Assembly (NCBI GenBank): GCA_945889195.1
Contig: CAMDBB010000007.1
Coordinates: 12,818-76,817 of the forward strand
Origin: Bifidobacterium breve
Lineage (GTDB): Bacteria > Actinomycetota > Actinomycetes > Nanopelagicales > Nanopelagicaceae
Reading direction: 5' to 3'
Length of the DNA stretch: 64,000 bases
Below, in pieces: positions 25,214 to 64,000 of the stretch (positions are counted from its first letter, which is position 1; each line of letters begins with the position of its first letter). The notes beneath the pieces were generated by a model, which worked only from the letters and a program-made list of their open reading frames with translations, did not search any database and was not told the origin of the DNA. The translations under genes and the position numbers were made by a program.

Positions 25214-25298
25214 GGAGGATTCGCATAGCGGCCGAGTGCGCACGCTTGGAAAGCGTGTATAGGGAAACCTATCGAGGGTTCAAATCCCTCATCCTCCG
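25214..25298 (+). tRNA. tRNA-Ser (anticodon GGA)
   Basis: Hand fold: acceptor GGAGGAT/ATCCTCC, D stem GCA/TGC with a GG-containing loop, anticodon stem CACGC/GCGTG with loop TTGGAAA. Long variable arm ATAGG-GAAA-CCTAT, T arm GAGGG-TTCAAAT-CCCTC, discriminator G. No encoded CCA. Confidence 0.93.
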
Positions 25299-25467
25299 CT
25301 CGTTTCACTCGCTTCAGATGATTCACAAATCAACGCTTTCACGTATTTCCCTGGAACCGCTGCCTGATATAGAAACCACAAGTACGACCATCCTCCGCCA
25401 AAAATCCTGTAACTGAGGGTAACCAGAACTACTGCGGGTAACTGGGGTTTCTAACTAAATTTACGTT

Positions 25468-25809
25468 ATGAGTGTCAGTGATGAATTTGAGTTGACTCCC
25501 GATCAAACACGTCGGGAGCATGCTGTTCTTGCCAATTTTTCACACTTGATTAAAACCGAAAGATCTCGATATGGAAATCAGGCGATTCAACTTTTAGAAA
25601 AAAAGTATTTTGAATCAGAAGTTAATGGTTTTAAGCTCATTTGTCTGGTCAAACCCAATACTTATCTGTGTCGGATTCAAAATCAGGATATCTCCGGAGA
25701 TAGTTATGAGATTGAATTTCCCATTCCAGAATCCAAAGAAGAAATGCTAGAGACTCTTGTTGAGTTATTCGCACAGAGTGAAGCAAAATGCTTGATAGGA
25801 GCACACTAG
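25468..25809 (+). CDS. hypothetical protein, 113 aa, acidic, no TM segment (cassette 1, first gene)
   Basis: ORF in the track. No motif that I recognise. Its stop lies 4 nt before the next gene's GTG. Confidence 0.55.
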   Translation: MSVSDEFELTPDQTRREHAVLANFSHLIKTERSRYGNQAIQLLEKKYFESEVNGFKLICLVKPNTYLCRIQNQDISGDSYEIEFPIPESKEEMLETLVELFAQSEAKCLIGAH

Positions 25810-25813
25810 GGAC

Positions 25814-26314
25814 GTGAGTTATTTTGAAAAGTGCTTAACATCTGATGGGCTTTTTTTCCAAAAAGAAAAAAGAGCGCTTTATAAGTACTTGCTAGAAATA
25901 AACAAGTGCTTTTATGTTAATCAGGCAAACCAGCTGCTGGACAAAGGCATCATAACTCGAATTATCGCGAATGGTGAAGCTACTTATTTTCTTAAAGATA
26001 GGAAAGTGAATTACTCCGCAAGAAAGTTAAATTCTGATGAGATTTACCTTAATCTTCGAGATGTCAAATTAAATCGTAATAGAAGATACAGCATTCGGAA
26101 ACTCGAAAAGTTCTTTGCACAATGTGATGTCGACGTAGTCTCCAACTTTCCTATCCCTGGACGATTTCCGAAAGAAGAGTCAGGATATGGCTTTAATGCA
26201 TACCCATTTTACACTCTTGCTTACTACGCCAACGGAAGGAACTACCTAAAAGGAATAGTCAAAAAACTTCGTACTAAAGACAAAGAAATGCTTACAAAAC
26301 TTCGAAATCTATAA
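25814..26314 (+). CDS. hypothetical protein, 166 aa, basic (cassette 1, second gene); paralogue of 26934..27434
   Basis: Coding status is supported by gapless paralogy, about 74/166 identical by my hand alignment, with conserved blocks EKxALYKYLLE, ANGE, LExFFAQxxVDxxSNFPxPG, NAxPFYxLxYYxNGR and LTKLRxL. Confidence 0.7.
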   Translation: MSYFEKCLTSDGLFFQKEKRALYKYLLEINKCFYVNQANQLLDKGIITRIIANGEATYFLKDRKVNYSARKLNSDEIYLNLRDVKLNRNRRYSIRKLEKFFAQCDVDVVSNFPIPGRFPKEESGYGFNAYPFYTLAYYANGRNYLKGIVKKLRTKDKEMLTKLRNL

Positions 26315-26349
26315 CACCTCTCTTGGTCACGCGTGCACGAAAGTTTCAA

Positions 26350-26372
26350 GGGTTCAAATCCATCATCTTCCG
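26350..26372 (+). repeat. degenerate direct copy of the tRNA-Ser 3' end (att-like)
   Basis: GGGTTCAAATCCATCATCTTCCG versus tRNA 25276..25298 GGGTTCAAATCCCTCATCCTCCG, 21/23 identical. Weaker similarity (CACGC..GAAAG) may extend about 20 nt further 5'. Confidence 0.7.
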
Positions 26373-26431
26373 TAAGGAACTCTGTGGATAACCCTATCCA
26401 GAAAGTGGGCGGTTGAGATTAATTTGGGTTC

Positions 26432-26929
26432 ATGTCAATATCGCTACCACTAAAACAAGTCTTTAAATTCAAGGTTCCCGGAGTGCTTGCCTTGGCTATC
26501 TTTGCTGGACAATTTTTAGTAAATGAACTTCCCAAAGTGAAGGAGCCACTTTGCAAGATTGATGTTGAGCGGCCACATACTTCGACATATTTAAAACAAC
26601 GCAAAAATCTTGAGATTCTCAAATTGAATGTCACAACGGAATGCACGGTGCCTCAGGAATTCACAATTCTCAATGCAGACATTCAAGCAATAGTCGATAA
26701 CGTTCAAATTTCGGTACAACGTTTCGACAATGAATTGCGAGTACCTGATGAGAAAGGCAGATTCAAAGCGAAATATCGGGATCTTCAGGTTGATTGTGAC
26801 TCCCTTGAGCCAACCATGTACTTTGGGCAAGCTCAGGCAGAAATACATCTCAAAAATGGTGAGGTGGAGAAGCTGTCCGGCGATTCACAATATTTCGTTA
26901 GCCAAGATTGCAAAATTGATGCAAAATAG
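26432..26929 (+). CDS. hypothetical protein, 165 aa, N-terminal hydrophobic anchor or signal, four Cys (cassette 2, first gene)
   Basis: ORF in the track with the hydrophobic stretch VPGVLALAIFAGQFLV near the N-terminus. I see no similarity to the first gene of cassette 1. Confidence 0.55.
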   Translation: MSISLPLKQVFKFKVPGVLALAIFAGQFLVNELPKVKEPLCKIDVERPHTSTYLKQRKNLEILKLNVTTECTVPQEFTILNADIQAIVDNVQISVQRFDNELRVPDEKGRFKAKYRDLQVDCDSLEPTMYFGQAQAEIHLKNGEVEKLSGDSQYFVSQDCKIDAK

Positions 26930-26933
26930 GAAA

Positions 26934-27434
26934 GTGACCTTCTACGAAGAATGTTTAACTCTCGGACGATTCCTGAGCCGTGCCGAAAAAGAGGCACTTT
27001 ACAAGTATCTTTTAGAAACTAAGCGAAATACATATAGAGCTGGGGCTAAAACCCTACTTCAAGATGATTTCCTAACAGTTTATGTTGCAAATGGTGAGAT
27101 TCAATATGGAATTGAAGATAAGCATGTTCACTATGTTGCAAGAGAAATTAACTCAGCAGAATTCTGTCCTGCTATCCGAAAGTTGAGTTTACATGTGCCA
27201 AAATTTTTGAAAGTTATTAGATTAGAGCGATTCTTTGCACAAGCTGAAGTCGATATTTTGAGTAATTTCCCCTTACCTGGAGATAATCAACAACCTGAAG
27301 GTGGTTTTGGGATAAATGCGATTCCTTTCTATGATTTAAAGTACTACTCGAATGGGCGCGGAATGTTGCGCGGGTTTTTGAAGAAATTTGAAAATTCAAA
27401 TTCAGAAATTCTTACAAAACTGAGGACTCTTTAG
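26934..27434 (+). CDS. hypothetical protein, 166 aa (cassette 2, second gene); paralogue of 25814..26314
   Basis: The track ORF starts at 26730, but the homology begins at GTG 26934 (VTFYEECLT versus VSYFEKCLT). That gives the same 166-aa length and the same TAG-N4-GTG junction as cassette 1. ATG 26919 is an alternative start. Confidence 0.7.
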   Translation: MTFYEECLTLGRFLSRAEKEALYKYLLETKRNTYRAGAKTLLQDDFLTVYVANGEIQYGIEDKHVHYVAREINSAEFCPAIRKLSLHVPKFLKVIRLERFFAQAEVDILSNFPLPGDNQQPEGGFGINAIPFYDLKYYSNGRGMLRGFLKKFENSNSEILTKLRTL

Positions 27435-27435
27435 G

Positions 27436-28854
27436 TTAAATCTCGACGCCGATGTACTTAGTCTGCAAGAACTCGTGAACACCGTCGAATCCGCCTTCGC
27501 GACCAAGGCCTGATTGCTTCACGCCACCAAAAGGCGCTGCAGGATCTGAGAGCAAGCCGCGATTGATTCCCACCATGCCTGCTTCAAGTCCTTCCGCAAA
27601 TCGAATAGCGCGCTTGAGATCTTCTGAATACACATAACTAATAAGTCCGTATTCAGTGTCGTTAGCGAGCTTGAGAGCTTCTTCATCTGTATCAAAGAGA
27701 ACAATCGGCGCAACTGGTCCAAAGACTTCATTGGCCAAGATTTCATCATCTTTAGAGACTTCAAGAACTGTTGCTGGATAGAAAGCACCAGCGCCATCTG
27801 GAGTAGTTCCACCAAGATGAACCTTTGCTCCGCGGGCCTTTGATGCATCTACTAACTCTGCAATCTTGTTACGTTCTTTCACAGAAACGCTTGCACCTAA
27901 CTGAGTTCCTGCTTCGCGGCCAACGCCCATCTTGAGAGCTGCCATAGCTTTTGCAAATTCAGCGATGAACTTGTCGCCAACAGAGCGAGCGACATAGATG
28001 CGATTTGCTGCTGTGCAGGCCGCTCCACCGTTGCGCATCTTTGCCATCATCAAGCCCTTTACCGCTTCTTCAACGTTTGCATCATCGAGAACAACAAATG
28101 GTGCATTGCCACCAAGTTCCATAGAACAACGGATAACTTGATCAGCAGCTTCTTTGAGAAGAATCTTTCCGACTTGAGTAGAGCCAGTAAAAGATAAATT
28201 CTTAACTCGTGAATCATGCAAAACTTTGCTAATTGCTGGACCTGACTGTGGTGGCAGAATGACATTGAGAACGCCTTTAGGAAGACCGCAGCGTTCGAGG
28301 ATGTCGACGATGGCGAGCGCTGTCAGTGGAGTTTCACCTGCTGGCTTCAAAATCATTGTGCAGCCAGCTGCAACTGCTGGGCCAATCTTGCGCGTTGCCA
28401 TTCCTGCAGGAAAGTTCCAGGGAGTAATGAGAAGAGATACACCGATTGGTTGATGAGTAACCAAGATGCGCTTGTCACCAGCGGGTGCCATGCGGAAGTC
28501 GCCAGAGATGCGAACTGTTTCTTCAGCAAACCAACGGAAGAATTCGGCGGCGTAATTTACTTCTGCGCGAGCATCGGGAAGCGCCTTGCCATTCTCTTTT
28601 GAGATTAGCTCTGCCAAATAATCCGCTTCAGCAATCATCATTTCAAAGGCTTTACGTAAGATTTCGCTGCGGGCTCGTGGCGCAGTCTTTGCCCAACTTG
28701 TTGCGGCGCGGTCCGCGGCATCTACGGCAGCGAGGTTCTGTTCATCACTTGAAGTGGCGACTTTGGCGATTACCGAGCCATCGCTTGGATCGATGACATC
28801 TACAGTCCCAGAACCATCTACCCACTGGCCATCGATATATAACTGAGTACGCAT
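27436..28854 (-). CDS. gabD: NAD(P)-dependent succinate-semialdehyde / aldehyde dehydrogenase
   Basis: 472 aa. ALDH superfamily (ELGGNAP, catalytic Cys in GGAACTAANR, PFGG.K.SG.GREG). Substrate assignment rests on overall similarity only. Confidence 0.75.
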   Translation of the reverse strand: MRTQLYIDGQWVDGSGTVDVIDPSDGSVIAKVATSSDEQNLAAVDAADRAATSWAKTAPRARSEILRKAFEMMIAEADYLAELISKENGKALPDARAEVNYAAEFFRWFAEETVRISGDFRMAPAGDKRILVTHQPIGVSLLITPWNFPAGMATRKIGPAVAAGCTMILKPAGETPLTALAIVDILERCGLPKGVLNVILPPQSGPAISKVLHDSRVKNLSFTGSTQVGKILLKEAADQVIRCSMELGGNAPFVVLDDANVEEAVKGLMMAKMRNGGAACTAANRIYVARSVGDKFIAEFAKAMAALKMGVGREAGTQLGASVSVKERNKIAELVDASKARGAKVHLGGTTPDGAGAFYPATVLEVSKDDEILANEVFGPVAPIVLFDTDEEALKLANDTEYGLISYVYSEDLKRAIRFAEGLEAGMVGINRGLLSDPAAPFGGVKQSGLGREGGFDGVHEFLQTKYIGVEI

Positions 28855-56889: not shown

Positions 56890-57021
56890 ATGTCGAGCTG
56901 CCACGCAACAGAACATCGGGCTCAGATTGCAGGCATCTTTGCTAATCACGGGTTAAAGGTAATTGACCTAGATGCGATCGATATGTGGGAATTTGCTAAC
57001 TACGAAGGACTTGGGGATTAA
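56890..57021 (+). pseudogene. rhodanese-like C-terminal fragment (43-codon ORF)
   Basis: The translation MSSCHATEHRAQIAGIFANHGLKVIDLDAIDMWEF.. fits the rhodanese active-site loop (C-x5-R) and following helix/strand pattern. The upstream in-frame sequence is broken by TAG codons at 56775 and 56850. Confidence 0.35.
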
Positions 57022-57046
57022 TTAAAGAATTGCTTGCAAGAATTAT

Positions 57047-58090
57047 CTAGAAAGTTGAGCAATCGATAACAAAGCGGTATCTAACATCACTTGCAACGGT
57101 TCTATCGTAAGCCTCATTGATATAATCAGCGCTGATCACCTCTACTTCGCTGACTATGTTGTTAGCCCCACAGAAATCAAGCATCTCTTGTGTTTCAGGG
57201 ATTCCACCAATCAAAGAGCCTGAAACAGAGCGCCGGCCATCCAGCAGAGATCCTGCGCCCATGCTGAAGGGCTCGCTAGGAACGCCAATCACTATTAGCG
57301 AGCCATCTGTTGCAAGTGTTGATAGATAGGGCTCTAGGTCTAAATGGGCGGATACGGTATTTAAAATGAGATCAAAACTTTTTTGGTATCCAAGATGCCA
57401 ATCAGCTTTTCCAGTGTCAATGAAATCAATTGCACCGAAAGCTCTTGCATCCTTTTCTTTAGCATCAGAGTGGGATAAAACAGTTACGTTGGCACCAAGG
57501 GCTATGGCAAATTTAACTGCCATATGTCCCAAACCGCCGAGTCCGGCAACTGCAACGTTGCTCCCTGGGCCGACCTTCCATTTCTTTAGCGGGGAGTAGG
57601 TAGTGATTCCAGCGCAGAGTAAGGGAGCCATCGCTGCCATATCAAGATTTGCCGGAAGTTTATAAGCATAACTCTCTGGAATTACGAAGTAATTTGAATA
57701 ACCACCATAGGCAATCTGCTTGGTATTTCTCTCATAGGCGTTGTAAGTGTCGGTATATCCTTCTAAACAATACTGCTGCAAACCATTTAAACAGTTCTTA
57801 CAATTTCTGCAGGAATCAATAAATACTCCTACGCCAATCCGATCGCCAGTTTTAAATTTTGATACGCCGCTTCCAACTGAAGTTACAGTGCCAACAAACT
57901 CGTGGCCCGGAACCATAGGGAAATTTGCTTCTCCCCATTCTTCTCTGGCCTGATGGATATCAGTGTGGCAGATACCAGAAAAGTCAATGCGGAATCCAAC
58001 GTCATCACTTCTGAGATCTCGTCTTTCAAAGGTGTATGGTTCTAATTTACCCTTTGCCGACATAGCTGCGAAGGCTTTAGTTGCAGTCAT
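57047..58090 (-). CDS. zinc-dependent NAD(P) alcohol dehydrogenase (CAD family)
   Basis: 347 aa with GICHTD, GHEFVG, structural-zinc Cys cluster C..C..C......C, and GLGGLGH. Confidence 0.9.
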   Translation of the reverse strand: MTATKAFAAMSAKGKLEPYTFERRDLRSDDVGFRIDFSGICHTDIHQAREEWGEANFPMVPGHEFVGTVTSVGSGVSKFKTGDRIGVGVFIDSCRNCKNCLNGLQQYCLEGYTDTYNAYERNTKQIAYGGYSNYFVIPESYAYKLPANLDMAAMAPLLCAGITTYSPLKKWKVGPGSNVAVAGLGGLGHMAVKFAIALGANVTVLSHSDAKEKDARAFGAIDFIDTGKADWHLGYQKSFDLILNTVSAHLDLEPYLSTLATDGSLIVIGVPSEPFSMGAGSLLDGRRSVSGSLIGGIPETQEMLDFCGANNIVSEVEVISADYINEAYDRTVASDVRYRFVIDCSTF

Positions 58091-58171
58091 TATTTTCCCC
58101 TCTAGTTTGATGGTTTAGTTAAATGGTTTGGCATTGCATTAAATTGTAAGTGGGTTGTAGGGAACATGCAA

Positions 58172-59377
58172 TCAAATCTTGATAAGAACTCGCCAATGTT
58201 TGCGATAAGGGAAAAGGGAAAGAACTGATATTAGAAGTGCAATTACTGGAACGATGAAAGATTTACCTGCACCATAGTTATCGATGATGTATCCCGAAAT
58301 TGGACCCGGAAGTGCGTTTCCGATCTGCAGACCTGCGAGTATCCAGGCGAAAGTTTCCGTAATCTTTGCGGGAGAAACGGATTTTTCAACGATTGCATAA
58401 CCAGAAATGAGTATTGGTGCGACACCGAGGCCGCTAAAGAAAAGCACTATGCCAAGGAGTAATATGGATTTTACGAAAAGAAGTGGAATTGTTAAGAAAA
58501 ACATCGCAATCATCAAATAGATAAATTTCTGACCATTGGTTATCTTGAGTCTAATTGCCCCATTTATGAGTGCGGCAACAGCACTACCAGCTGACCAAAT
58601 TGCTAAAAGTATTCCAGTCGAACCCTTAGCATCGAGTTGATCTGCAAACGCAATTGTGCTTAATGTTGCGGATGCGAAGAATACTCCAAGGAAAATGTAG
58701 GGTAAGAAAACCGCCTGAACATAGGGAATCGCAAGAACTGCGGTCCTCTTCTCGCTTTTAACTTTTGGATGAGGTGGTGGTTCGCTTCTCTTCTGCAAAA
58801 TGTATAGCCCGGTACCTACGCTCATAAATGAAAACGCAAAATACATTCCAGCTTGTGGTGCAATTGAAATTGCTGCAGCAGATGCTATTAAGGGACCAAT
58901 AATAAACACTATTTCATCAACAAGTGCTTCAAAGGAGTACGCAGTGTTGATGAGTTGACGACCATCTTCTTTGTCTTCCAGTGTATGCAGCCAACGTCGC
59001 CGTACCAGTCCACCGATATTGGGCAAGAATGCCTCGGCAATGAAAATGCAGCCCATCCAAATTATTATGGGGAAGTTGTGAGTGATTGTATATATAAAAA
59101 GTAGACCGAAAATTATGTATGGAGGAATTGTGAAACGTAAAACCTTAGCTTGGCCAAGCTGATCAGCTTTTCGGGACCAGACTGGGGAAAAAGCGGCGTT
59201 AGTTAACGCTGCCCCAGTCGAGATTACCCCCGCCAATGTATATGAGTCCGTTTCGTAAAGCACAATAAAAGTGACTGATAAGAAAGTCATGGAGATAGGT
59301 AAACGTGCCACTAATCCAGGAATCGAGAATGCGAGTCCGCCTGGCGTTGCAAAAAGTTCACGATACGGAGTCAGCAT
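58172..59377 (-). CDS. MFS transporter
   Basis: 401 aa with about 12 TM segments. Confidence 0.85.
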   Translation of the reverse strand: MLTPYRELFATPGGLAFSIPGLVARLPISMTFLSVTFIVLYETDSYTLAGVISTGAALTNAAFSPVWSRKADQLGQAKVLRFTIPPYIIFGLLFIYTITHNFPIIIWMGCIFIAEAFLPNIGGLVRRRWLHTLEDKEDGRQLINTAYSFEALVDEIVFIIGPLIASAAAISIAPQAGMYFAFSFMSVGTGLYILQKRSEPPPHPKVKSEKRTAVLAIPYVQAVFLPYIFLGVFFASATLSTIAFADQLDAKGSTGILLAIWSAGSAVAALINGAIRLKITNGQKFIYLMIAMFFLTIPLLFVKSILLLGIVLFFSGLGVAPILISGYAIVEKSVSPAKITETFAWILAGLQIGNALPGPISGYIIDNYGAGKSFIVPVIALLISVLSLFPYRKHWRVLIKI

Positions 59378-59498
59378 GGGGAAACTGTAATGGTATTGGA
59401 GTCATAAAAGGTTTAATTCTCTGAACAATTAGTCTAAAATCAAATATGACTGAGTTACTCCGATTTTTTGTAAACACTGATCCCGTTCAGGAAAGAGC

Positions 59499-60464
59499 AT
59501 GATGCAAAGTACTAAGCAAGACGTTAAATTGTATTTACTAGTTGACGGTGGAAAAACTAAGACCGAAGCAGTAATTGTCGATTCAAATGGATCAGAAATT
59601 GCGAAAAGTCGTGGGCCTGGTTTAGAAATAATTGGAAGCGTCGATGGCTACGAGCGTGTTGTTGATAGTTTGCGCACAACATTTGACCAACTTCCACAAA
59701 CCACACGATTTGCTGGGGTTGCATTTGGCTTAAACGGTGCTCAGGCAGCACCGTCTTATCATCTTGCCGCTAAAGCAATCTCATCATTGGTAAAAGCTGA
59801 TCAATTTACGATTGCCAGTGATGTCGTAATGAATTATCTAGGCGCACTTGGAAATCAACCTGGCGTAGTCGTTGCGGCAGGAACTGGCGCTGTGGTGATG
59901 GCAATTTCAAGAGAAGGCGTTGCGTATCGAATTGATGGCGATGGCCCACTAATTGCAGATCGTGGAAGCGGACACGACATTGGTCGACAAGGGTTAAAGA
60001 TCGCAGCAATGGTTGATGATGGGCTACCCGGGTCAGCTGCACTTCATAAAGCGATGATTGAACGTTTCGGCACGCTGGAAAACACTGCAGCTAGCGTTTA
60101 TGGAGCACCAAACCCCATCGAGGTAGTTGCCTCTTTCAGTAAGAGTGTTGTAGATGCCGCACAAGAGGGCGATGAAATGTCTATCGAGATTCTGCGCTGT
60201 GCCGCTCAAGATCTAGCCATGAATGTGCAAGCTGCCGCTCGACGTTCCAAGCTGGCAGGAGCGCCATTTTCCTATTCTACGGCCGGCGGAGTCTTTAACA
60301 TCGGGCCACTTATAGAAAAACCGTTCCACGATTTTGTAGCTCAATTTCTTCCCGAGGCCAAGTTTCAAAAACCTATAGGTGGGGCTATTGCAGGTGCCCA
60401 AATCATGGCTATGAATCAAGCGCCAGGGTTAGAGCAGGTAACCACTCGAATTGGCGCAAACTAG
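59499..60464 (+). CDS. BadF/BadG/BcrA/BcrD-type ATPase (N-acetylglucosamine-kinase-like)
   Basis: 321 aa with LLVDGGKTKT N-terminal phosphate motif and GTGA. ASKHA fold. Confidence 0.8.
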   Translation: MMQSTKQDVKLYLLVDGGKTKTEAVIVDSNGSEIAKSRGPGLEIIGSVDGYERVVDSLRTTFDQLPQTTRFAGVAFGLNGAQAAPSYHLAAKAISSLVKADQFTIASDVVMNYLGALGNQPGVVVAAGTGAVVMAISREGVAYRIDGDGPLIADRGSGHDIGRQGLKIAAMVDDGLPGSAALHKAMIERFGTLENTAASVYGAPNPIEVVASFSKSVVDAAQEGDEMSIEILRCAAQDLAMNVQAAARRSKLAGAPFSYSTAGGVFNIGPLIEKPFHDFVAQFLPEAKFQKPIGGAIAGAQIMAMNQAPGLEQVTTRIGAN

Positions 60465-60467
60465 TTA

Positions 60468-60495
60468 GGTATACCAGTTTCATATATGGTCTAGA
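60468..60495 (+). promoter_or_regulatory. candidate GntR/HutC (DasR/NagR-like) operator pair upstream of the sugar ABC operon
   Basis: The sequence is GGTATACCAGT-N8-TGGTCTAGA. It contains the perfect palindrome GGTATACC, and TGGTCTAGA equals the first 9 nt of the TGGTCTAGACCA dre core as I recall it. Confidence 0.3.
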
Positions 60496-60606
60496 AAAAC
60501 GTTAGTGCTTTGTAACTATAAATGATTGACTTTAGTGAAGCCCAATGGAAGATTTCATTTTGCAAAAGTTTTGGAAGTTCCGACAAACTACTGTGATTGG
60601 GTGAAA

Positions 60607-61887
60607 ATGAAAATTAGAAGTAAAAGTTTAGTTTTTGCACTGAGTGTTTCTTTACTTGTTCCTGCATCACTGATTACAACATCAGCTATGGCAGCAACAA
60701 CAACTCTAACAATTGATTCATGGCGTACGGATGATGCGAAGATTTGGAAAGATGTTTTGATTCCAATTTACGAAAAAGCTAATCCAAACGTAAAACTTGT
60801 ATTCGCACCAACCCCTTCAAACGAATATGACTCTGCGCTTTCTTTGCGGATGAAGAGCAAGACTGCGGCCGATGTAGTTATGTGCCGTCCATATGGTTTG
60901 ACTAAGGCTCTCATAAAGGACAAGCATTTAACTCCTATAACTGGCTTACCTGGGCTACAAAATTTCACAAAGCAATCGCAGCAATCTTGGGCAGACGCTA
61001 AGGGTGTTCCATATTGCATGCCAGTAGCCTCAGTAGGTGCAGGCTTCTACTACAATAAAAATATCTTTAAGGAATTGAATTTAACTGTTCCTAAGACGCA
61101 GAAAGAATTTATTGCAGTACTTAAGAAGATCAAGAAAAATGGAAAGTACACACCGCTTGTGGCGACTGGTTTATCAGCAGATTCTTGGGCACTGGATCAA
61201 TTGGGTCTTCAATTAGTGGGACCTTATTACTGGAAAGGTGATGCCGGTGGAGTTGCTCTTGACAACGGCACAAGAAAAGTTACTGATCCAGAGTACGTTG
61301 CTGCATTTGAAGCACTAGCTTCATGGAAGCCATATCTCCCTAAAGCATTCTCATCTGTTTCCTACTCAGATGCTGAGCAGCTATTCATTCTTGGTCGTGC
61401 TGCAGTTGCAGTTGACGGCTCATGGAGTGTAAAAGAAATGGCCCCACCAGGATCAAATGTTGGCGTGTTTGGTGCTCCAGTAGCTAAAGCCGGTGACAAG
61501 CCATATGTTCAGGTTCTTGCCGACTTCGGCTTTGGAATCAACTCTGCAAGCCCACATCAAGTCGAAGCTAAAAAACTTCTAACTTGGTTTTCAACTAAGG
61601 AGTTTGGACAGGCACTTGCCAATAACTTACCTGGATTCTTCCCATTGAGTAAGGAGAAGATTTCAATTGACAACAAAACAGCACAGGCCTGGCTTAACTT
61701 GCGTGATGGAGCGATCGTTACAGCTCCAATCGGCATGGATAAGATGAATACCGGTACACCTAACTGGTTCTCAGTCACAACTAATCTTTTGAATGTGATG
61801 ATGACTACGAAGATGACCGGAAAACAGGCAGCGGCTGAACTACAAAAGTCGTTGGAATCCTGGTATCCACCACAGAAAAAGAAGTAA
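60607..61887 (+). CDS. ABC transporter sugar-binding protein (family 1 SBP)
   Basis: I start it at ATG 60607 (MKIRSKSLVFALSVSLLVPASLITTSAMA signal peptide). The remainder is typical of carbohydrate SBPs. Confidence 0.88.
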   Translation: MKIRSKSLVFALSVSLLVPASLITTSAMAATTTLTIDSWRTDDAKIWKDVLIPIYEKANPNVKLVFAPTPSNEYDSALSLRMKSKTAADVVMCRPYGLTKALIKDKHLTPITGLPGLQNFTKQSQQSWADAKGVPYCMPVASVGAGFYYNKNIFKELNLTVPKTQKEFIAVLKKIKKNGKYTPLVATGLSADSWALDQLGLQLVGPYYWKGDAGGVALDNGTRKVTDPEYVAAFEALASWKPYLPKAFSSVSYSDAEQLFILGRAAVAVDGSWSVKEMAPPGSNVGVFGAPVAKAGDKPYVQVLADFGFGINSASPHQVEAKKLLTWFSTKEFGQALANNLPGFFPLSKEKISIDNKTAQAWLNLRDGAIVTAPIGMDKMNTGTPNWFSVTTNLLNVMMTTKMTGKQAAAELQKSLESWYPPQKKK

Positions 61888-61895
61888 GTGATGTC

Positions 61896-61940
61896 GGTGC
61901 TCAGACCCATAGTGGGTCTGAGCACCTTCACCTTTCGATT
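61896..61940 (+). terminator. strong hairpin (13-bp perfect stem) plus T-rich tail after the SBP gene
   Basis: GGTGCTCAGACCC-ATAGT-GGGTCTGAGCACC followed by TTCACCTTTCGATTT. It is probably a partial terminator or mRNA stabiliser between the SBP and permease genes. Confidence 0.65.
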
Positions 61941-61966
61941 TATTGCTAATTTAACTGGGGGAGTAC

Positions 61967-62848
61967 TTGAAATCTAAAACATTAGTGCGTAGGCGCCGCC
62001 GGCAACTGTTGCTGTTTACTGCCCCGGCCCTTGCCTTTTTTCTGCTTTTTGCAGTTTTTCCATTACTCTCAACGATCTACATCAGTTTCTACCAAGAAGA
62101 TGTATTTGTTGGTCTAAAAAACTTTGTTTTCCTGTTTACGGATGATGAAGCAAGCGAAAGACTCCTTTTCGCATTTCTGCATAACTGTCAATTTTTCTTG
62201 ATTGCCGCATCGGTACAACTTCCAACGGCTCTATTAATGGCAGCCCTCTTGACCTCGGGTCGAGTTAGGCGAATGACCAGTTTTTATCGCACATTGCTAT
62301 TTATCCCAACGACCCTGTCTGTTGTAATTGTTGGTTTCATTTGGCGAATAATCATTAGCCCACTGTGGGGGATAGTTGACTATCCATTGTTGGGTGAAAA
62401 ACTTACTGCACTTCCGACAATCACCCTGATGTCGGTCTGGCAATATCTTGGAATCCCGATGGTTTTTCTATACAGCGCGCTACTTTCAATTCCAAGCAAT
62501 ATCATCGAAGCTGCTCAAGTGGATGGTGCATCAGATATCAGAATTTTCTTTCGAATTAAAATGCCACTAATTGCTCCACAAATTGGGATTATTACAATTT
62601 TAACTTTTATCTGGGTCTTTAATGCTTTTGACATCATTTATGCCTTAAATGGTGGAATGCCTGGTCCGGACTATGCAACTGATGTCCTGGGCACAATGTT
62701 CTACCGGACTTTCTTTGGCTGGGGTGCTGACCTAGGAAACCAGAATCTAGGCGCTGCAACAGCGACTGTTATATTCTTCATTATTCTGTTGGGCACAGCA
62801 GCATATTTTGCGGTTGTGCAACGCCGTTTGAAAGTGAGTCAGTTATGA
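61967..62848 (+). CDS. carbohydrate ABC transporter permease (MalF-like)
   Basis: 293 aa with 6 TM segments and the EAA-type loop (IEAAQVDGAS). TTG start with GGGGGAG SD. Confidence 0.9.
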   Translation: MKSKTLVRRRRRQLLLFTAPALAFFLLFAVFPLLSTIYISFYQEDVFVGLKNFVFLFTDDEASERLLFAFLHNCQFFLIAASVQLPTALLMAALLTSGRVRRMTSFYRTLLFIPTTLSVVIVGFIWRIIISPLWGIVDYPLLGEKLTALPTITLMSVWQYLGIPMVFLYSALLSIPSNIIEAAQVDGASDIRIFFRIKMPLIAPQIGIITILTFIWVFNAFDIIYALNGGMPGPDYATDVLGTMFYRTFFGWGADLGNQNLGAATATVIFFIILLGTAAYFAVVQRRLKVSQL

Positions 62849-63690
62849 TGAACAAAGATGGCAGAGTTCAAACTCAATCAAAAAATCTCGTAGTCCATGT
62901 ATCTTTGCTATTTTTTGTGTTACTTGCAATTGGTCCAATATTTGTAATGGTCATAAATTCATTTAAAACTATGGAAGGTATTTTTACTGGACCACTAAAG
63001 CTTCCGAGTTCTGAGACCTTGACCTTAGATGGATTTAAACGTGCGATCACACAAGGAAACTTTCTTAGAAATTATGCAAATAGCACTATTGTCACCTTAG
63101 GAGCTACGTTATTAACGGTTATTTGCTCCTGCTTGGCCGCTTATGGAATAACTGAATACACCACAAAACTTTCAAAAATGATTGCTGGTCTATTTACCAT
63201 AGGCATCATGTTGCCAGTTTCGCTAGGAACTATTGTAATTATTAAGATGATGGTATGGCTTAATATTTTAAATACTCATATATCACTCATTCTTGTTTAT
63301 GTAGGAATCTTTGTACCGCTAGGTGTAATTTTAATGGTTACCAATTTTCGAACAGTTTCTAATGATCTAAAGGAAGCAGCACGCATTGATGGCGCAAATG
63401 AGTTCAAGACCTTCCTGATAGTTGTTCCACTGGTTATGCCAGGTGTTGCTGCGGTGGCTGCGATCACAATGCTGCCTGTTTGGAATGACTTATGGTTCCC
63501 ACTAGTCCTCACTGCGGGACCAAAAACTCAGACATTAACGTTGGGCATCCAGCAATTTGTTGGTACTTACAACAATGATTGGCAGGCGCTGATTGCCTCC
63601 TTAGTGCTTGGCGCAATTCCGCTGATTCTGTTATTTACTCTTTTCTCAAAGCAATTTATAAAAGGTCTTTCAGATGGGTACGGCAAGTAA
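62845..63690 (+). CDS. carbohydrate ABC transporter permease (MalG-like)
   Basis: 281 aa with the EAA loop (EAARIDGANEF). 4-nt overlap with the upstream permease. Confidence 0.9.
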   Translation: MMNKDGRVQTQSKNLVVHVSLLFFVLLAIGPIFVMVINSFKTMEGIFTGPLKLPSSETLTLDGFKRAITQGNFLRNYANSTIVTLGATLLTVICSCLAAYGITEYTTKLSKMIAGLFTIGIMLPVSLGTIVIIKMMVWLNILNTHISLILVYVGIFVPLGVILMVTNFRTVSNDLKEAARIDGANEFKTFLIVVPLVMPGVAAVAAITMLPVWNDLWFPLVLTAGPKTQTLTLGIQQFVGTYNNDWQALIASLVLGAIPLILLFTLFSKQFIKGLSDGYGK

Positions 63691-63725
63691 GGATTTCGGG
63701 TTACCAATCTAATAAGGGAGTACAC

Positions 63726-64000
63726 ATGAAGGTCGATAGAGTTGAAGATATTGATTCAGTTTTGATAGCTGAATTAATTGCCCATCTTGGATTAGATGCC
63801 GTGAATCGACAAGTCCCCGAGATTAAAATGGCAGCGAAGCTGATTTTTGATGCCGTTAACGGTGGCGGAAATGTTTTTACTTTTGGCGCCGGCCATGCAC
63901 AAGCTCTGGCAATGGAGTTTTCAAGTCGAGCGGGTGGTTTGGCTATATTTCAATCAATGCATCTACAGGATATCCGCCAAGAGCCCCGAGATGCATTCTG
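63726..64000 (+). CDS. SIS-domain (UPF0309-type sugar isomerase-like) protein, N-terminal part; cut by window edge
   Basis: My translation from ATG 63726 (AAGGGAG SD) is MKVDRVEDIDS..AAKLIFDAVNGGGNVFTFGAGHAQALAMEFSSRAGGLA. Confidence 0.7.
   Translation, partial: MKVDRVEDIDSVLIAELIAHLGLDAVNRQVPEIKMAAKLIFDAVNGGGNVFTFGAGHAQALAMEFSSRAGGLAIFQSMHLQDIRQEPRDAF

What the first reader, a model, noticed from the sequence alone, without database searches (positions are those of the whole stretch)
25299..27434. AT-rich 2.1-kb islet at tRNA-Ser(GGA), split by a degenerate copy of the tRNA 3' end, with no integrase
Base composition drops immediately after tRNA-Ser (25214..25298). My hand counts of single 60-nt lines give about 30-42% GC in the islet and about 50% in dnaX and other flanking genes. 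The drop persists until the islet ends 1 nt from the convergent gabD-like stop.

The 23-mer at 26350..26372 (GGGTTCAAATCCATCATCTTCCG) matches the T-arm/acceptor end of the tRNA (25276..25298) at 21/23 positions. That is the classical attL/attR footprint of integration into a tRNA gene. It divides the islet into two segments, 25299..26372 and 26373..27434, each carrying one two-gene cassette. This suggests tandem accretion at one hotspot.

No integrase, excisionase, transposase or replication gene is present. None of the four ORFs matches a family I recognise. This is the only clearly accessory-looking DNA in the window and the best place for an undescribed system.
Basis: partly seen in the sequence, partly recalled or inferred. 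Interest (0 to 1): 0.75.

Follow-up and report, generated by a model that had tools for sequence, protein, structure and literature searches.

The report
Variable gene-cassette hotspot beside tRNA-Ser
The AT-rich stretch is a real strain-variable hotspot next to a serine tRNA gene in an abundant freshwater actinobacterium (Planktophila, acI lineage); it holds one intact "exported protein plus intracellular partner" gene pair and two leftover partner genes, with no integrase, which is an ordinary kind of genomic island carrying undescribed gene families.

Summary
GC falls from 0.48 to 0.39 over 25299..27434, and the 23-mer at 26350..26372 matches the tRNA end at 21/23, with 0 such matches in 100 shuffles.

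- The genome is a Planktophila/Nanopelagicaceae (acI) genome. The interval between tRNA-Ser(GGA) and gabD is a hypervariable hotspot across this family. It ranges from 8 nt (empty) to more than 5.7 kb, and cargo differs even among the closest relatives.
- The tRNA-like piece is 52 nt long. It matches a second tRNA-Ser gene ("CGA-prime") that sits inside this interval in other genomes better than it matches the resident tRNA. I read it as a 5'-truncated pseudogene marking a slot boundary.
- The four ORFs are not two equivalent cassettes. B and D are paralogs (45% identity), and A is a remote homolog of their N-terminal domain. C+D is the canonical lineage-specific pair: an exported four-cysteine Ig-like protein plus a cytoplasmic partner. 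A and B are orphan partners whose exported mates were deleted.
- No integrase appears in about 45 related loci, and no viral relatives were found.

Turnover is best explained by recombination between homologous loci plus deletions. The function of the cassettes is unknown. A toxin-immunity-like logic is possible but unproven.

The parts
25214..25298 (+). tRNA-Ser(GGA), the conserved left anchor of the hotspot. It is followed by CTC rather than an encoded CCA.
   Evidence: ARAGORN and Rfam RF00005 at 53.9 bits. The 3' 23-mer is identical in all related loci.
25299..25388 (+). 90-nt gene-free spacer that is homologous in three lineages (window, L004, L018). Its origin is unknown; it may be the residue of an older insert.
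   Evidence: Alignment A5. The pattern TATTTNCCTGGAAC is shared only with L004 and L018.
25389..25400 (+). 12-nt remnant of the tRNA-Ser 3' end plus CCA (CATCCTCCGCCA). It heads the leader sequence upstream of A.
   Evidence: Unique in the window, with 0 matches in 100 shuffles. It continues into a spacer homologous to the tRNA-proximal spacer of L085 and L004.
25413..25425 (+). Decayed copy (CTGAGGGTAACCA) of the cassette leader motif CTGTGGATAACCA. It marks where the exported mate of A used to begin.
   Evidence: Aligns with the TGTGGATAA motif of L004 and L018 in A5.
25468..25809 (+). ORF A, 113 aa, acidic (pI 4.9). It is an orphan short-type partner gene and a remote homolog of the N-domain of B and D.
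   Evidence: hhalign of A4 against A1 gives probability 96.7% and E 4.7e-10, aligning wA 19-110 with wB 18-110. It is 81% identical by tblastn to the L102 partner, which sits behind an exported C-like gene. dN/dS is 0.25 against L102.
25788..25809 (+). Chimeric 3' end of A. These are the last 22 nt of a deleted type-2 exported-protein gene (...CLIGA*), fused in frame to A; this is a deletion scar.
   Evidence: Matches the end of the gene fragment upstream of B in L004 at 20/22. The L102 homolog ends ...SEAGRIN instead.
25814..26314 (+). ORF B, 166 aa, basic (pI 9.7), GTG start. It is an orphan long-type partner gene and a paralog of D.
   Evidence: 45% identical to D with no gaps, E 3e-51. 78% identical to the gabD-adjacent gene of L001 and L004. 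The family has 357 metagenomic proteins. dN/dS is 0.13-0.15. The AF2 N-domain fold is alpha-alpha-beta4-alpha.
26321..26372 (+). 5'-truncated pseudogene of a second tRNA-Ser ('CGA-prime' type), running from the anticodon loop to the acceptor end. It forms the boundary between slot 1 and slot 2.
   Evidence: 42/52 gapless to the CGA-prime tRNA of L022 and L026, better than to the resident tRNA. blastn-short gives 39/45, E 7.7e-6, against 22/24, E 0.008. Intact copies occupy the same position in L022, L026, L088, L099 and L113.
26373..26431 (+). Cassette leader. It contains the DnaA-box-like 9-mer TGTGGATAA (26383..26391) inside the palindrome TGGATA-ACCC-TATCCA (26385..26400), ending 40 nt before the C start codon. 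It is a candidate promoter or operator.
   Evidence: Homologous to the spacer that follows the genuine tRNA in L085-L087. The motif occurs only once in the window. It is present with at most 1 mismatch upstream of 18/24 C-like genes, against a background of 0.011 per 120 nt.
26432..26929 (+). ORF C, 165 aa. It has an N-terminal hydrophobic signal or anchor followed by an all-beta Ig-like domain with 4 invariant Cys and invariant His49, Ser51 and Lys64. It is the exported member of the cassette.
   Evidence: Family alignments A2 and A3. 138 homologs, none with an annotation. AF2 pLDDT is 84. The best PDB folds are adhesin Ig-like repeats and ApaG, E about 1e-3, TM about 0.4.
26934..27434 (+). 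ORF D, 166 aa from the GTG start (171 aa if the ATG at 26919 is used). It is the cognate long-type partner of C and ends 1 nt before the gabD stop.
   Evidence: Paralog of B. 75% identical to the D gene of L085, which has the same C+D arrangement directly after the tRNA.
27436..28854 (-). gabD-like aldehyde dehydrogenase, the conserved right anchor of the hotspot.
   Evidence: ORF list. 97% identical to the gene of Actinobacterium SCGC AAA278-O22. Pfam Aldedh in syntenic loci.

Best explanation
Region 25299..27434 is the occupied state of a strain-variable hotspot that Planktophila/Nanopelagicaceae (acI Actinobacteria) keep between tRNA-Ser(GGA) and gabD.

The characteristic cargo of the hotspot is a lineage-specific two-gene cassette:
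- a leader carrying a TGTGGATAA motif;
- a gene for an exported, disulfide-bonded Ig-like protein (C-like);
- a tightly coupled gene for a cytoplasmic partner. Partners come in three types: short A-like, long B/D-like, and a third type of 125-136 aa.

The window carries one intact cassette, C+D, in the gabD-proximal slot. The tRNA-proximal slot holds two orphan partner genes, A and B. Their exported mates were removed by deletions, and one deletion left a 22-nt scar fused to A. The two slots are separated by the decayed, 5'-truncated copy of a second tRNA-Ser gene that heads the inner slot in other genomes.

Inferred: cassettes of different types are trans-specific alleles. They are shuffled among related strains by recombination anchored in the invariant tRNA and gabD flanks, with imprecise (illegitimate) joins that leave flank fragments. 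A resident integrase is not involved.

Inferred with low confidence: the exported protein and its partner form a cognate pair in which the partner is useful on its own. That would explain the retained orphans and is the logic of a toxin-immunity or exclusion module.
For: Hotspot:
- 21 complete intervals from GTDB genomes range from 8-9 nt (L031, L038) to 5.7 kb, with unrelated cargo.
- 15 further metagenomic loci with 85-98% gabD identity carry at least 6 different cargoes.
- Planktophila is reported to have additive genomic islands flanked by tRNAs (PMC12817590).

Cassette:
- 18 loci have a complete C-like gene immediately followed by a partner.
- 0 loci have a complete C-like gene without a partner.
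- There are at least 6 orphan partners and 3 loci with a degraded C-like gene plus an intact partner.
- More intact pairs were seen.

Paralogy and origin:
- B and D are 45% identical. A is related to the B N-domain at hhalign probability 96.7%.
- B is closer to L001 and L004 (78%), and D to L085 (75%), than B is to D. The two therefore came together by lateral transfer, not by local duplication.

Slot boundary:
- The remnant matches the CGA-prime tRNA at 42/52. Intact CGA-prime genes occupy the same position elsewhere.
- The spacer after the remnant is homologous to the spacer after the genuine tRNA in the single-cassette relatives L085-L087.

Imprecise recombination between loci:
- L088 carries an internal 50-nt gabD 3' fragment that is 92% identical to the window's gabD, while its own gabD end is only 81% identical.
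- L117 carries an internal tRNA fragment (positions 23-64) that lacks the 3' end.
- A has a chimeric 3' end.

No integrase:
- None by Pfam on ambiguous cargo or in precomputed Pfam annotations of neighbours.
- No B-family relative in IMG/VR, and no viral attP-like match to the tRNA end.

Real genes: dN/dS is 0.11-0.25. The same A-B-remnant-C-D arrangement, 99.7% identical, occurs in an independent run (L090).
Against: - No same-species genome with alternative cargo was available; the closest relative, L102, has gabD dS 0.41. Individual recombination events could therefore not be traced.
- The remnant starts in the anticodon loop and runs to the 3' end. That is also what an integrase attR scar would look like.
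- A 9-12-nt duplication (CATCCTCCG...) flanks the 90-nt spacer. Five other species share a remnant with a conserved 70-nt arm. Both are suggestive of site-specific elements.
- The asymmetry of orphans could be a by-product of insertions and deletions always entering from the tRNA side.
- No toxin, immunity or any other known domain was detected, and structural matches are generic or absent.
- Large integrase-bearing elements would break short-read assemblies and so could have been missed.
Confidence: 0.6

Rival explanations
1. Integrase-mediated tandem accretion. Segment 1 (A+B) is the eroded body of a tRNA-targeting integrative element, comparable to a cis-mobilisable element or a tycheposon remnant. 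It would have integrated into a tRNA-Ser by site-specific recombination catalysed by an integrase supplied in trans or later lost. The 52-nt fragment would be its attR scar.
For: - The partial tRNA copy ends exactly at the acceptor end and begins in the anticodon loop.
- It lies 6 nt after the B stop, at a cargo boundary.
- A 9-12-nt repeat, CATCCTCCG(CCA), brackets the 90-nt spacer.
- Remnants with a conserved upstream arm occur next to gabD or between cargoes in L015, L017, L020, L021 and L024.
- Prochlorococcus islands show the same picture of partial tRNAs left by successive integrations (10.1101/2020.12.28.424599).
Against: - No integrase or integrase fragment was found in about 45 occupied loci.
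- No viral contig carries the tRNA end as an attP, and none carries the B family.
- The remnant's variable arm is that of another tRNA-Ser paralog, which exists as a full gene at this position elsewhere.
- The L117 remnant lacks the 3' end where crossover would occur.
- A gabD fragment is also duplicated inside an island.
- The cargo consists of locus-resident gene families, not element-type genes.
Confidence: 0.25
2. Local tandem duplication. A single ancestral cassette, together with the tRNA 3' part, duplicated in place, and the copies then diverged into A+B and C+D.
For: B and D are the same length and align without gaps. A tRNA-derived fragment separates the two halves.
Against: - B is 78% identical to genes in other lineages but only 45% identical to D. 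D is 75% identical to the L085 gene. The B/D split therefore predates the divergence of these lineages.
- A and C are unrelated.
- A's nearest relative (81%) is the partner in a different cassette type in L102.
- An unconstrained tRNA fragment would not stay 81% identical while the proteins fell to 45%.
Confidence: 0.05
3. Not accessory at all. The four genes are ordinary lineage-specific core genes that are AT-rich because they evolve fast, and the tRNA-like fragment is incidental.
For: The cassette families are confined to this lineage and to this locus. They are present in 13 of 21 GTDB intervals and are under purifying selection.
Against: - Empty sites and unrelated cargo occur at the same position.
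- The closest relatives carry different cassette types (L102, L005, L006, L007).
- Contigs frequently break here.
Confidence: 0.05

Closest known systems
Additive, tRNA-flanked flexible genomic islands of Planktophila (GI2-GI4 in PMC12817590) and of Alteromonas (PMC3698932)
   Same: They have the same host genus and a syntenic position next to a tRNA. Gene content differs between close relatives, cargo is small, composition is low in GC, and many genes are hypothetical.
   Different: This locus is much smaller than the reported islands: 4 genes, where the paper listed islands of at least 10 genes. It is dominated by one recurring two-gene cassette family, and I could not tell whether it corresponds to any numbered island. 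No integrase was found.
Prochlorococcus genomic islands built by tycheposons (10.1101/2020.12.28.424599)
   Same: Both involve a streamlined planktonic genome. Islands lie at tRNA genes, and partial tRNA copies separate successive cargo blocks, with older cargo pushed inward.
   Different: Tycheposons carry tyrosine recombinases, and fragmented integrases are seen in the islands. Neither was found here. Here some 'partial tRNAs' are decayed copies of a second full tRNA gene, and a fragment of the opposite flank (gabD) is also duplicated.
Cis-mobilisable elements and tandem accretion at tRNA or fda sites (ICESt1 family, Streptococcus thermophilus). This comparison is from my own knowledge and was not checked here.
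   Same: These are integrase-less segments bounded by att-like repeats that lie in tandem at one site.
   Different: Cis-mobilisable elements have true att repeats recognised by a known integrative conjugative element's integrase. No such partner element is known or was found for acI.
Polymorphic toxin-immunity loci with orphan immunity genes (contact-dependent inhibition and Rhs orphan modules, acquired interbacterial defence islands). This comparison is from my own knowledge.
   Same: The two genes are tightly coupled and co-vary. Many divergent types occur at one locus. Arrays combine different types. Partner genes occur alone, whereas the exported gene was never seen complete without a partner.
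   Different: No recognisable toxin or immunity domain is present. The exported protein is a small Sec-type Ig-like protein without a delivery domain. The partner is cytoplasmic. No activity has been shown.

Membership tests
tRNA-linked additive flexible genomic island | Lies directly next to a tRNA gene at a position that is syntenic across relatives | tested here: met
   The order dnaX - SRP RNA - tRNA-Ser(GGA) - cargo - gabD is found in the window and in more than 40 loci.
tRNA-linked additive flexible genomic island | Gene content differs between close relatives, and empty sites exist | tested here: met
   L031 and L038 are empty, with 8-9 nt between the tRNA and gabD. L005, L006, L007 and L102 have 94-98% gabD identity and all carry different cargo.
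tRNA-linked additive flexible genomic island | Repeated tRNA pieces delimit successive cargo blocks | tested here: met
   Seen in the window at 26321..26372 and 25389..25400, and in L022, L026, L088, L099, L113, L117, L021 and L024.
tRNA-linked additive flexible genomic island | Atypical base composition | tested here: met
   GC is 0.391 against 0.481 in the window. It is 0.39-0.46 against 0.44-0.53 in relatives.
Integrase-mobilised integrative element (prophage, integrative conjugative or mobilisable element, cis-mobilisable element, tycheposon) | A tyrosine or serine recombinase in the element or in related occupants of the same site | tested here: not met
   There are no recombinase domains in the window ORFs, in ambiguous cargo of relatives, or in precomputed Pfam annotations of neighbours.
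Integrase-mobilised integrative element (prophage, integrative conjugative or mobilisable element, cis-mobilisable element, tycheposon) | Direct repeats that are copies of the target tRNA 3' end (attL and attR) | tested here: inconclusive
   The copy is 21/23 to the resident end. However, the 52-nt remnant fits another tRNA-Ser paralog better, and the L117 remnant lacks the 3' end.
Integrase-mobilised integrative element (prophage, integrative conjugative or mobilisable element, cis-mobilisable element, tycheposon) | Excision to a circular form, or read-level presence/absence polymorphism | not testable with these tools
   This needs raw reads or PCR.
Prophage remnant | Homology of the genes to phage proteins or to viral contigs | tested here: not met
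   No PHROG hit has an E-value below 0.1. The IMG/VR scan found no B-family relative. The BFVD fold search gave nothing at E <= 0.001.
Toxin-immunity (polymorphic toxin) cassette | A tightly linked gene pair, many divergent co-varying types, and orphan immunity genes without orphan toxins | tested here: met
   18 pairs, 0 complete C-like genes alone, at least 6 orphan partners, and 3 degraded C-like genes with an intact partner. C subtypes track partner types.
Toxin-immunity (polymorphic toxin) cassette | A recognisable toxin or immunity domain or fold | tested here: not met
   No library hit was found. C has a generic Ig-like fold. The B fold is unmatched.
Toxin-immunity (polymorphic toxin) cassette | The exported protein inhibits growth, and the cognate partner protects | not testable with these tools
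   This needs an experiment.
Known anti-phage defence systems | A match to a PADLOC model | tested here: not met
   0 families matched any of the four proteins.

The most novel reading that the evidence does not exclude
The C-like/partner cassettes are an undescribed polymorphic toxin-immunity (or exclusion) system of acI Actinobacteria. The exported Ig-like protein, with four cysteines and invariant His, Ser and Lys, would harm non-kin Planktophila cells. The cytoplasmic alpha-alpha-beta4-alpha partner would neutralise its cognate type. Strains such as this one would then collect orphan partners (A, B) as extra immunities at a recombination hotspot whose leader is controlled through a DnaA-box-like operator.
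Probability: 0.2. Interest if true: 0.75.

Novelty: new member of a known kind. Interest (0 to 1): 0.45.

Why it matters
acI/Planktophila are among the most abundant freshwater bacteria. They have tiny genomes with almost no classical mobile elements, so how they generate strain diversity is an open question. This locus gives a compact, well-delimited example with three useful features:
- an integrase-free hotspot whose boundaries are a tRNA gene, a decaying second tRNA gene and gabD;
- internal fragments of both flanks, which show that cargo is exchanged between related lineages;
- a recurring exported-protein/partner cassette with retained orphan partners.

If that cassette mediates strain-strain antagonism or phage exclusion, it would be a first handle on such interactions in this group. 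If not, the locus is simply one more small flexible island.

Tried and rejected
- Domain and family searches of all four proteins found nothing. I searched Pfam, PHROGs, PADLOC and NCBIfam, and used profiles of the B and C families (A1, A3) against PDB sequences.
- Structure prediction plus Foldseek was not informative. B has no match below E 0.1 in PDB and none at E <= 0.001 in BFVD; weak resemblances to Whirly/PUR-like folds were not pursued as evidence. C has only generic Ig-like matches.
- I suspected from the sequence pattern that B was a winged-helix DNA-binding protein. The AF2 topology does not support this.
- Viral origin was rejected. No B relative is in IMG/VR. The scan with the C alignment could not run. 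The 17-mer of the tRNA end hit only unrelated phage tRNAs or chance sites.
- Rfam found nothing beyond the tRNA and SRP RNA, in the islet at a relaxed threshold or at the conserved remnants of other loci. Folding of the conserved remnant arm was not significant, z = -1.7.
- The promoter and terminator consensus scan of the islet gave no more sites than shuffles.
- I tried to detect a recombination tract in gabD or dnaX by sliding identity against L005-L013. The relatives are too divergent, at about 85% nucleotide identity.
- I first read the C-terminus of A as possibly native to the A family. Nucleotide comparison showed it is a fusion to the end of a C-like gene.
- A MITE-like origin of the 90-nt spacer was rejected by eye, because it has no terminal inverted repeats.
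Full report
**1. The observation**

- tRNA-Ser(GGA) is at 25214..25298. The SRP RNA is just upstream on the other strand.
- GC falls to 0.35-0.43 between about 25400 and 27430 and is about 0.50 on either side. The islet as a whole is at 0.391 against 0.481 for the rest of the window.
- Third-position GC of the four ORFs is 0.30-0.39, against 0.413 +/- 0.031 for 37 long ORFs of the window.
- The 23-mer at 26350..26372 matches the tRNA end at 21/23. No such match appears in 100 shuffles of the window.
- The last ORF ends at 27434, and the convergent aldehyde dehydrogenase (gabD-like) occupies 27436..28854.
- One claim does not hold. The islet is not the only AT-rich stretch, because window 57-64 kb is at 0.39-0.42 GC and encodes a dehydrogenase, an MFS protein and a sugar ABC transporter.

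**2. The organism and the locus**

The gabD protein is 97% identical to that of Actinobacterium SCGC AAA278-O22. The next best matches are Candidatus Planktophila and Nanopelagicaceae genomes. The order dnaX - SRP RNA - tRNA-Ser(GGA) - X - gabD - amino-acid permease is conserved in these genomes.

I retrieved the locus through gabD, which does not depend on the cargo.
- Among 21 GTDB genomes in which the whole interval is present, its length runs from 8-9 nt (L031 and L038, empty sites) to 5.7 kb (L005).
- The three relatives with the highest gabD identity in that set carry three different cargoes. L005 (97%) has an A-like gene and four phosphoesterase-type genes. L006 (95%) has a C-like plus D-like pair. 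L007 (94%) has another pair type.
- A metagenome scan with a 26-mer from the gabD end gave 15 further loci with 85-98% gabD identity and at least six different cargoes.
- Many contigs end at this point, as expected for a hypervariable site.
- A 2025 study of Planktophila isolates reports that genomic islands GI2-GI4 of the genus are "additive and flanked by tRNAs" (PMC12817590). I could not tell whether this small locus is one of them.

**3. The four ORFs**

B (25814..26314) and D (26934..27434) are paralogs. Both are 166 aa, they align without gaps, and they are 45% identical, E 3e-51.

The B family has these properties.
- It comprises 357 metagenomic proteins of 166-171 aa, all unannotated.
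- An exhaustive profile search of 1.84 billion representative proteins finds only 49 clusters, so the family is lineage-restricted.
- Wherever context was available, the gene lies at this same locus.

A (25468..25809) is a remote homolog of the N-terminal domain of B and D. Profile-profile comparison gives probability 96.7% and E 4.7e-10 over 92 columns. One database protein, P0154, fuses a B-type and an A-type domain.

C (26432..26929) is unrelated to the other three. Its family has an N-terminal signal or anchor, four invariant cysteines, and invariant His49, Ser51 and Lys64.

Structure predictions gave the following.
- C is a confident all-beta Ig-like sandwich (pLDDT 84). Its nearest solved folds are adhesin repeat domains and ApaG, at E about 1e-3 and TM about 0.4.
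- B has a confident alpha-alpha-beta4-alpha N-domain and an unmodelled C-terminal part. It has no structural match.

No domain library recognises any of the four proteins. dN/dS values of 0.11-0.25 show that they are real genes, though less constrained than gabD at 0.02-0.03.

**4. The cassette**

Across loci the recurring unit has three components.
- A leader with the 9-mer TGTGGATAA. This is the reverse complement of the classical DnaA box TTATCCACA (the DnaA-box identity is from my own knowledge).
- A C-like gene.
- A partner gene that starts within a few bases of the C-like stop or overlaps it.

Three partner types go with distinct C subtypes.
- Short A-like partners of about 110 aa go with C proteins ending ...CGT.
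- Long B/D-like partners of 166 aa go with C proteins ending ...C-x-I-G/D-A-K/Q.
- A third type of 125-136 aa also occurs.

The motif occurs once in the 64-kb window, at 26383..26391. It lies inside the palindrome TGGATA-ACCC-TATCCA. With at most one mismatch it is found within 120 nt upstream of 18 of 24 C-like genes, against a background of 0.011 per 120 nt. In six of the seven B/D-type cassettes examined it ends 40 nt before the start codon (44 nt in the seventh). The proteins themselves have diverged to 20-35% identity, so this is a selected cis-element. Which protein binds it is unknown.

**5. The true content of the islet**

Segment 2 (C+D) is a complete cassette. In L085-L087 the C protein is 79% identical to the window's. 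There, the same leader and pair follow the genuine tRNA-Ser(GGA) directly and run up to gabD, which is the single-cassette state.

Segment 1 is different.
- A's closest relative is 81% identical by tblastn. It lies in L102, the locus with the highest gabD identity (98%), and is the partner behind a complete C-like gene.
- In the window that C-like gene is gone. Only a 12-nt tRNA-end remnant (25389..25400) and a mutated leader motif (25413..25425) remain upstream of A.
- The last 22 nt of A (25788..25809) are not A-family sequence. They are the end of a B/D-type C-like gene, matching at 20/22 the gene fragment upstream of B in L004. The L102 homolog ends differently.

A and B are therefore two orphan partner genes, joined by a deletion that removed B's exported mate. 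The identical arrangement, 99.7% identical over 1651 nt, is present in an unrelated sequencing run (L090). It is therefore not an assembly artefact.

**6. The tRNA-like fragment**

Extended leftwards, the fragment is 52 nt long (26321..26372).
- It aligns without gaps at 42/52 to a second tRNA-Ser gene. ARAGORN calls this gene Ser(CGA). Its first 28 and last 28 nt are identical to tRNA-Ser(GGA), but its anticodon arm and variable arm differ.
- The resident tRNA fits less well and needs gaps. blastn-short gives 39/45, E 7.7e-6, for the second gene against 22/24, E 0.008, for the resident one.
- That second gene is intact inside the interval in L022, L026, L088, L099 and L113, always at the head of an inner cargo block.

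The simplest reading is that the window fragment is the decayed, 5'-truncated ortholog of that gene. The interval then has two slots, with the boundary at this gene.

tRNA-derived pieces at cargo boundaries are common.
- L117 has positions 23-64 of the tRNA 10 nt after the first of two cassettes.
- L004 and L018 share with the window a 90-nt spacer followed by the 12-nt end remnant.
- L015, L017, L020, L021 and L024 share a shortened remnant with a conserved upstream arm.

That test is clearly not met.

**7. How cargo turns over**

I found no recombinase in any occupied locus. I found no relative of the B family in viral contigs, and no viral contig uses this tRNA end as an attachment site.

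Three observations point to recombination between homologous loci of different lineages with imprecise joins.
- L088 contains a 50-nt copy of the gabD 3' end between an imported cargo block and its own cassette. That copy is 92% identical to the window's gabD, whereas L088's own gabD end is only 81% identical.
- The L117 remnant lacks the tRNA 3' end, so it cannot be an att duplication.
- B and D are each much closer to genes in other lineages than to each other. The alleles are therefore old and were brought together laterally.

I consider this the best explanation (confidence about 0.6).

The integrase model remains open at about 0.25, with an enzyme supplied in trans or since lost, as in tycheposon-built Prochlorococcus islands (10.1101/2020.12.28.424599). 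Three points keep it open.
- The window remnant runs from the anticodon loop to the 3' end.
- A 9-12-nt repeat brackets the 90-nt spacer.
- Large elements would be lost from short-read assemblies.

**8. What the cassette does**

This is inference. The census gave the following counts.
- 18 loci have a complete C-like gene immediately followed by a partner.
- No locus has a complete C-like gene without a partner.
- There are at least six orphan partners: window A and B, L004 B, L005, L010 and L019.
- Three loci have a degraded C-like gene with an intact partner.
- Further intact pairs were seen.

In the four multi-cassette arrays I examined (window, L004, L088, L117), each combines different partner types or very divergent alleles. 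An exported protein that is never kept without its cytoplasmic partner, while partners are kept alone, fits the logic of toxin-immunity or exclusion modules.

There are reasons for caution. The asymmetry could also follow from deletions entering from the tRNA side. No toxin-like feature is recognisable, and nothing was tested. I give this reading about 0.2.

**9. Verdict**

The hotspot is a known kind of feature, a small additive flexible island in a streamlined planktonic bacterium. The "att footprint" is more likely a decaying second tRNA gene.

The new elements are:
- the anatomy of the locus: two slots, and flank fragments of both kinds inside islands;
- a previously undescribed, lineage-restricted cassette family with a conserved DnaA-box-like leader and retained orphan partners.

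Interest is moderate.

Noticed in passing
window 26383..26400; also upstream of C-like genes in L001-L117: A DnaA-box-like 9-mer, TGTGGATAA, lies within the palindrome TGGATA-ACCC-TATCCA in the window. It is conserved upstream of 18/24 exported-protein genes and ends 40 nt before the start codon in six of the seven B/D-type cassettes examined. It occurs only once in the 64-kb window.
   Followed up: partly
L022 2158..2241, L026 6902..6987 (both in flipped coordinates), L088 2907..2990, L113 4798..4881, L099 2372..2457: A second tRNA-Ser gene has its 5' 28 nt and 3' 28 nt identical to tRNA-Ser(GGA) but a CGA anticodon arm and a different variable arm. Other genomes instead carry an unrelated tRNA-Ser(CGA) (GGTGGCG...) a few kb beyond gabD. 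This looks like duplication of a tRNA gene followed by an anticodon switch.
   Followed up: partly
L015, L017, L020, L021, L024 (flipped coordinates as): A shortened tRNA-like remnant, GAGGATAAATCCCTCATCCTCCG, joins the acceptor 5' strand directly to the T-loop and 3' end. It is preceded by a roughly 70-nt arm conserved across five species. It has no Rfam match, and its predicted fold is not significant.
   Followed up: partly
window 25299..25400; L004 2738..2845; L018: A 90-nt gene-free spacer is conserved in three lineages. It lies between the tRNA and a 12-nt repeat of the tRNA end, and it is bracketed by the 9-nt repeat CATCCTCCG. The tRNA in these genomes has lost its encoded CCA.
   Followed up: partly
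L088 4811..4860: A 50-nt duplicate of the gabD 3' end lies inside the island. It is more similar to the window's gabD (92%) than to the gabD of the same contig (81%).
   Followed up: yes
L120-L127: This lineage lacks gabD. The C-like/B-like cassette is followed directly by the amino-acid permease gene.
   Followed up: no
L113-L116 4008..4769: A heliorhodopsin gene and a PGPGW-domain gene are cargo of the outer slot of the same hotspot in one lineage.
   Followed up: no
window 57000..64000: A second AT-rich stretch (GC 0.39-0.42) encodes a Zn-dependent dehydrogenase, an MFS transporter, a BadF-type ATPase and a sugar ABC transporter. It is possibly another flexible region.
   Followed up: partly
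protein P0154 (276 aa, metagenomic): This is a natural fusion of a B-type N-domain with an A-type domain. It supports the view that the two partner families share one fold.
   Followed up: no
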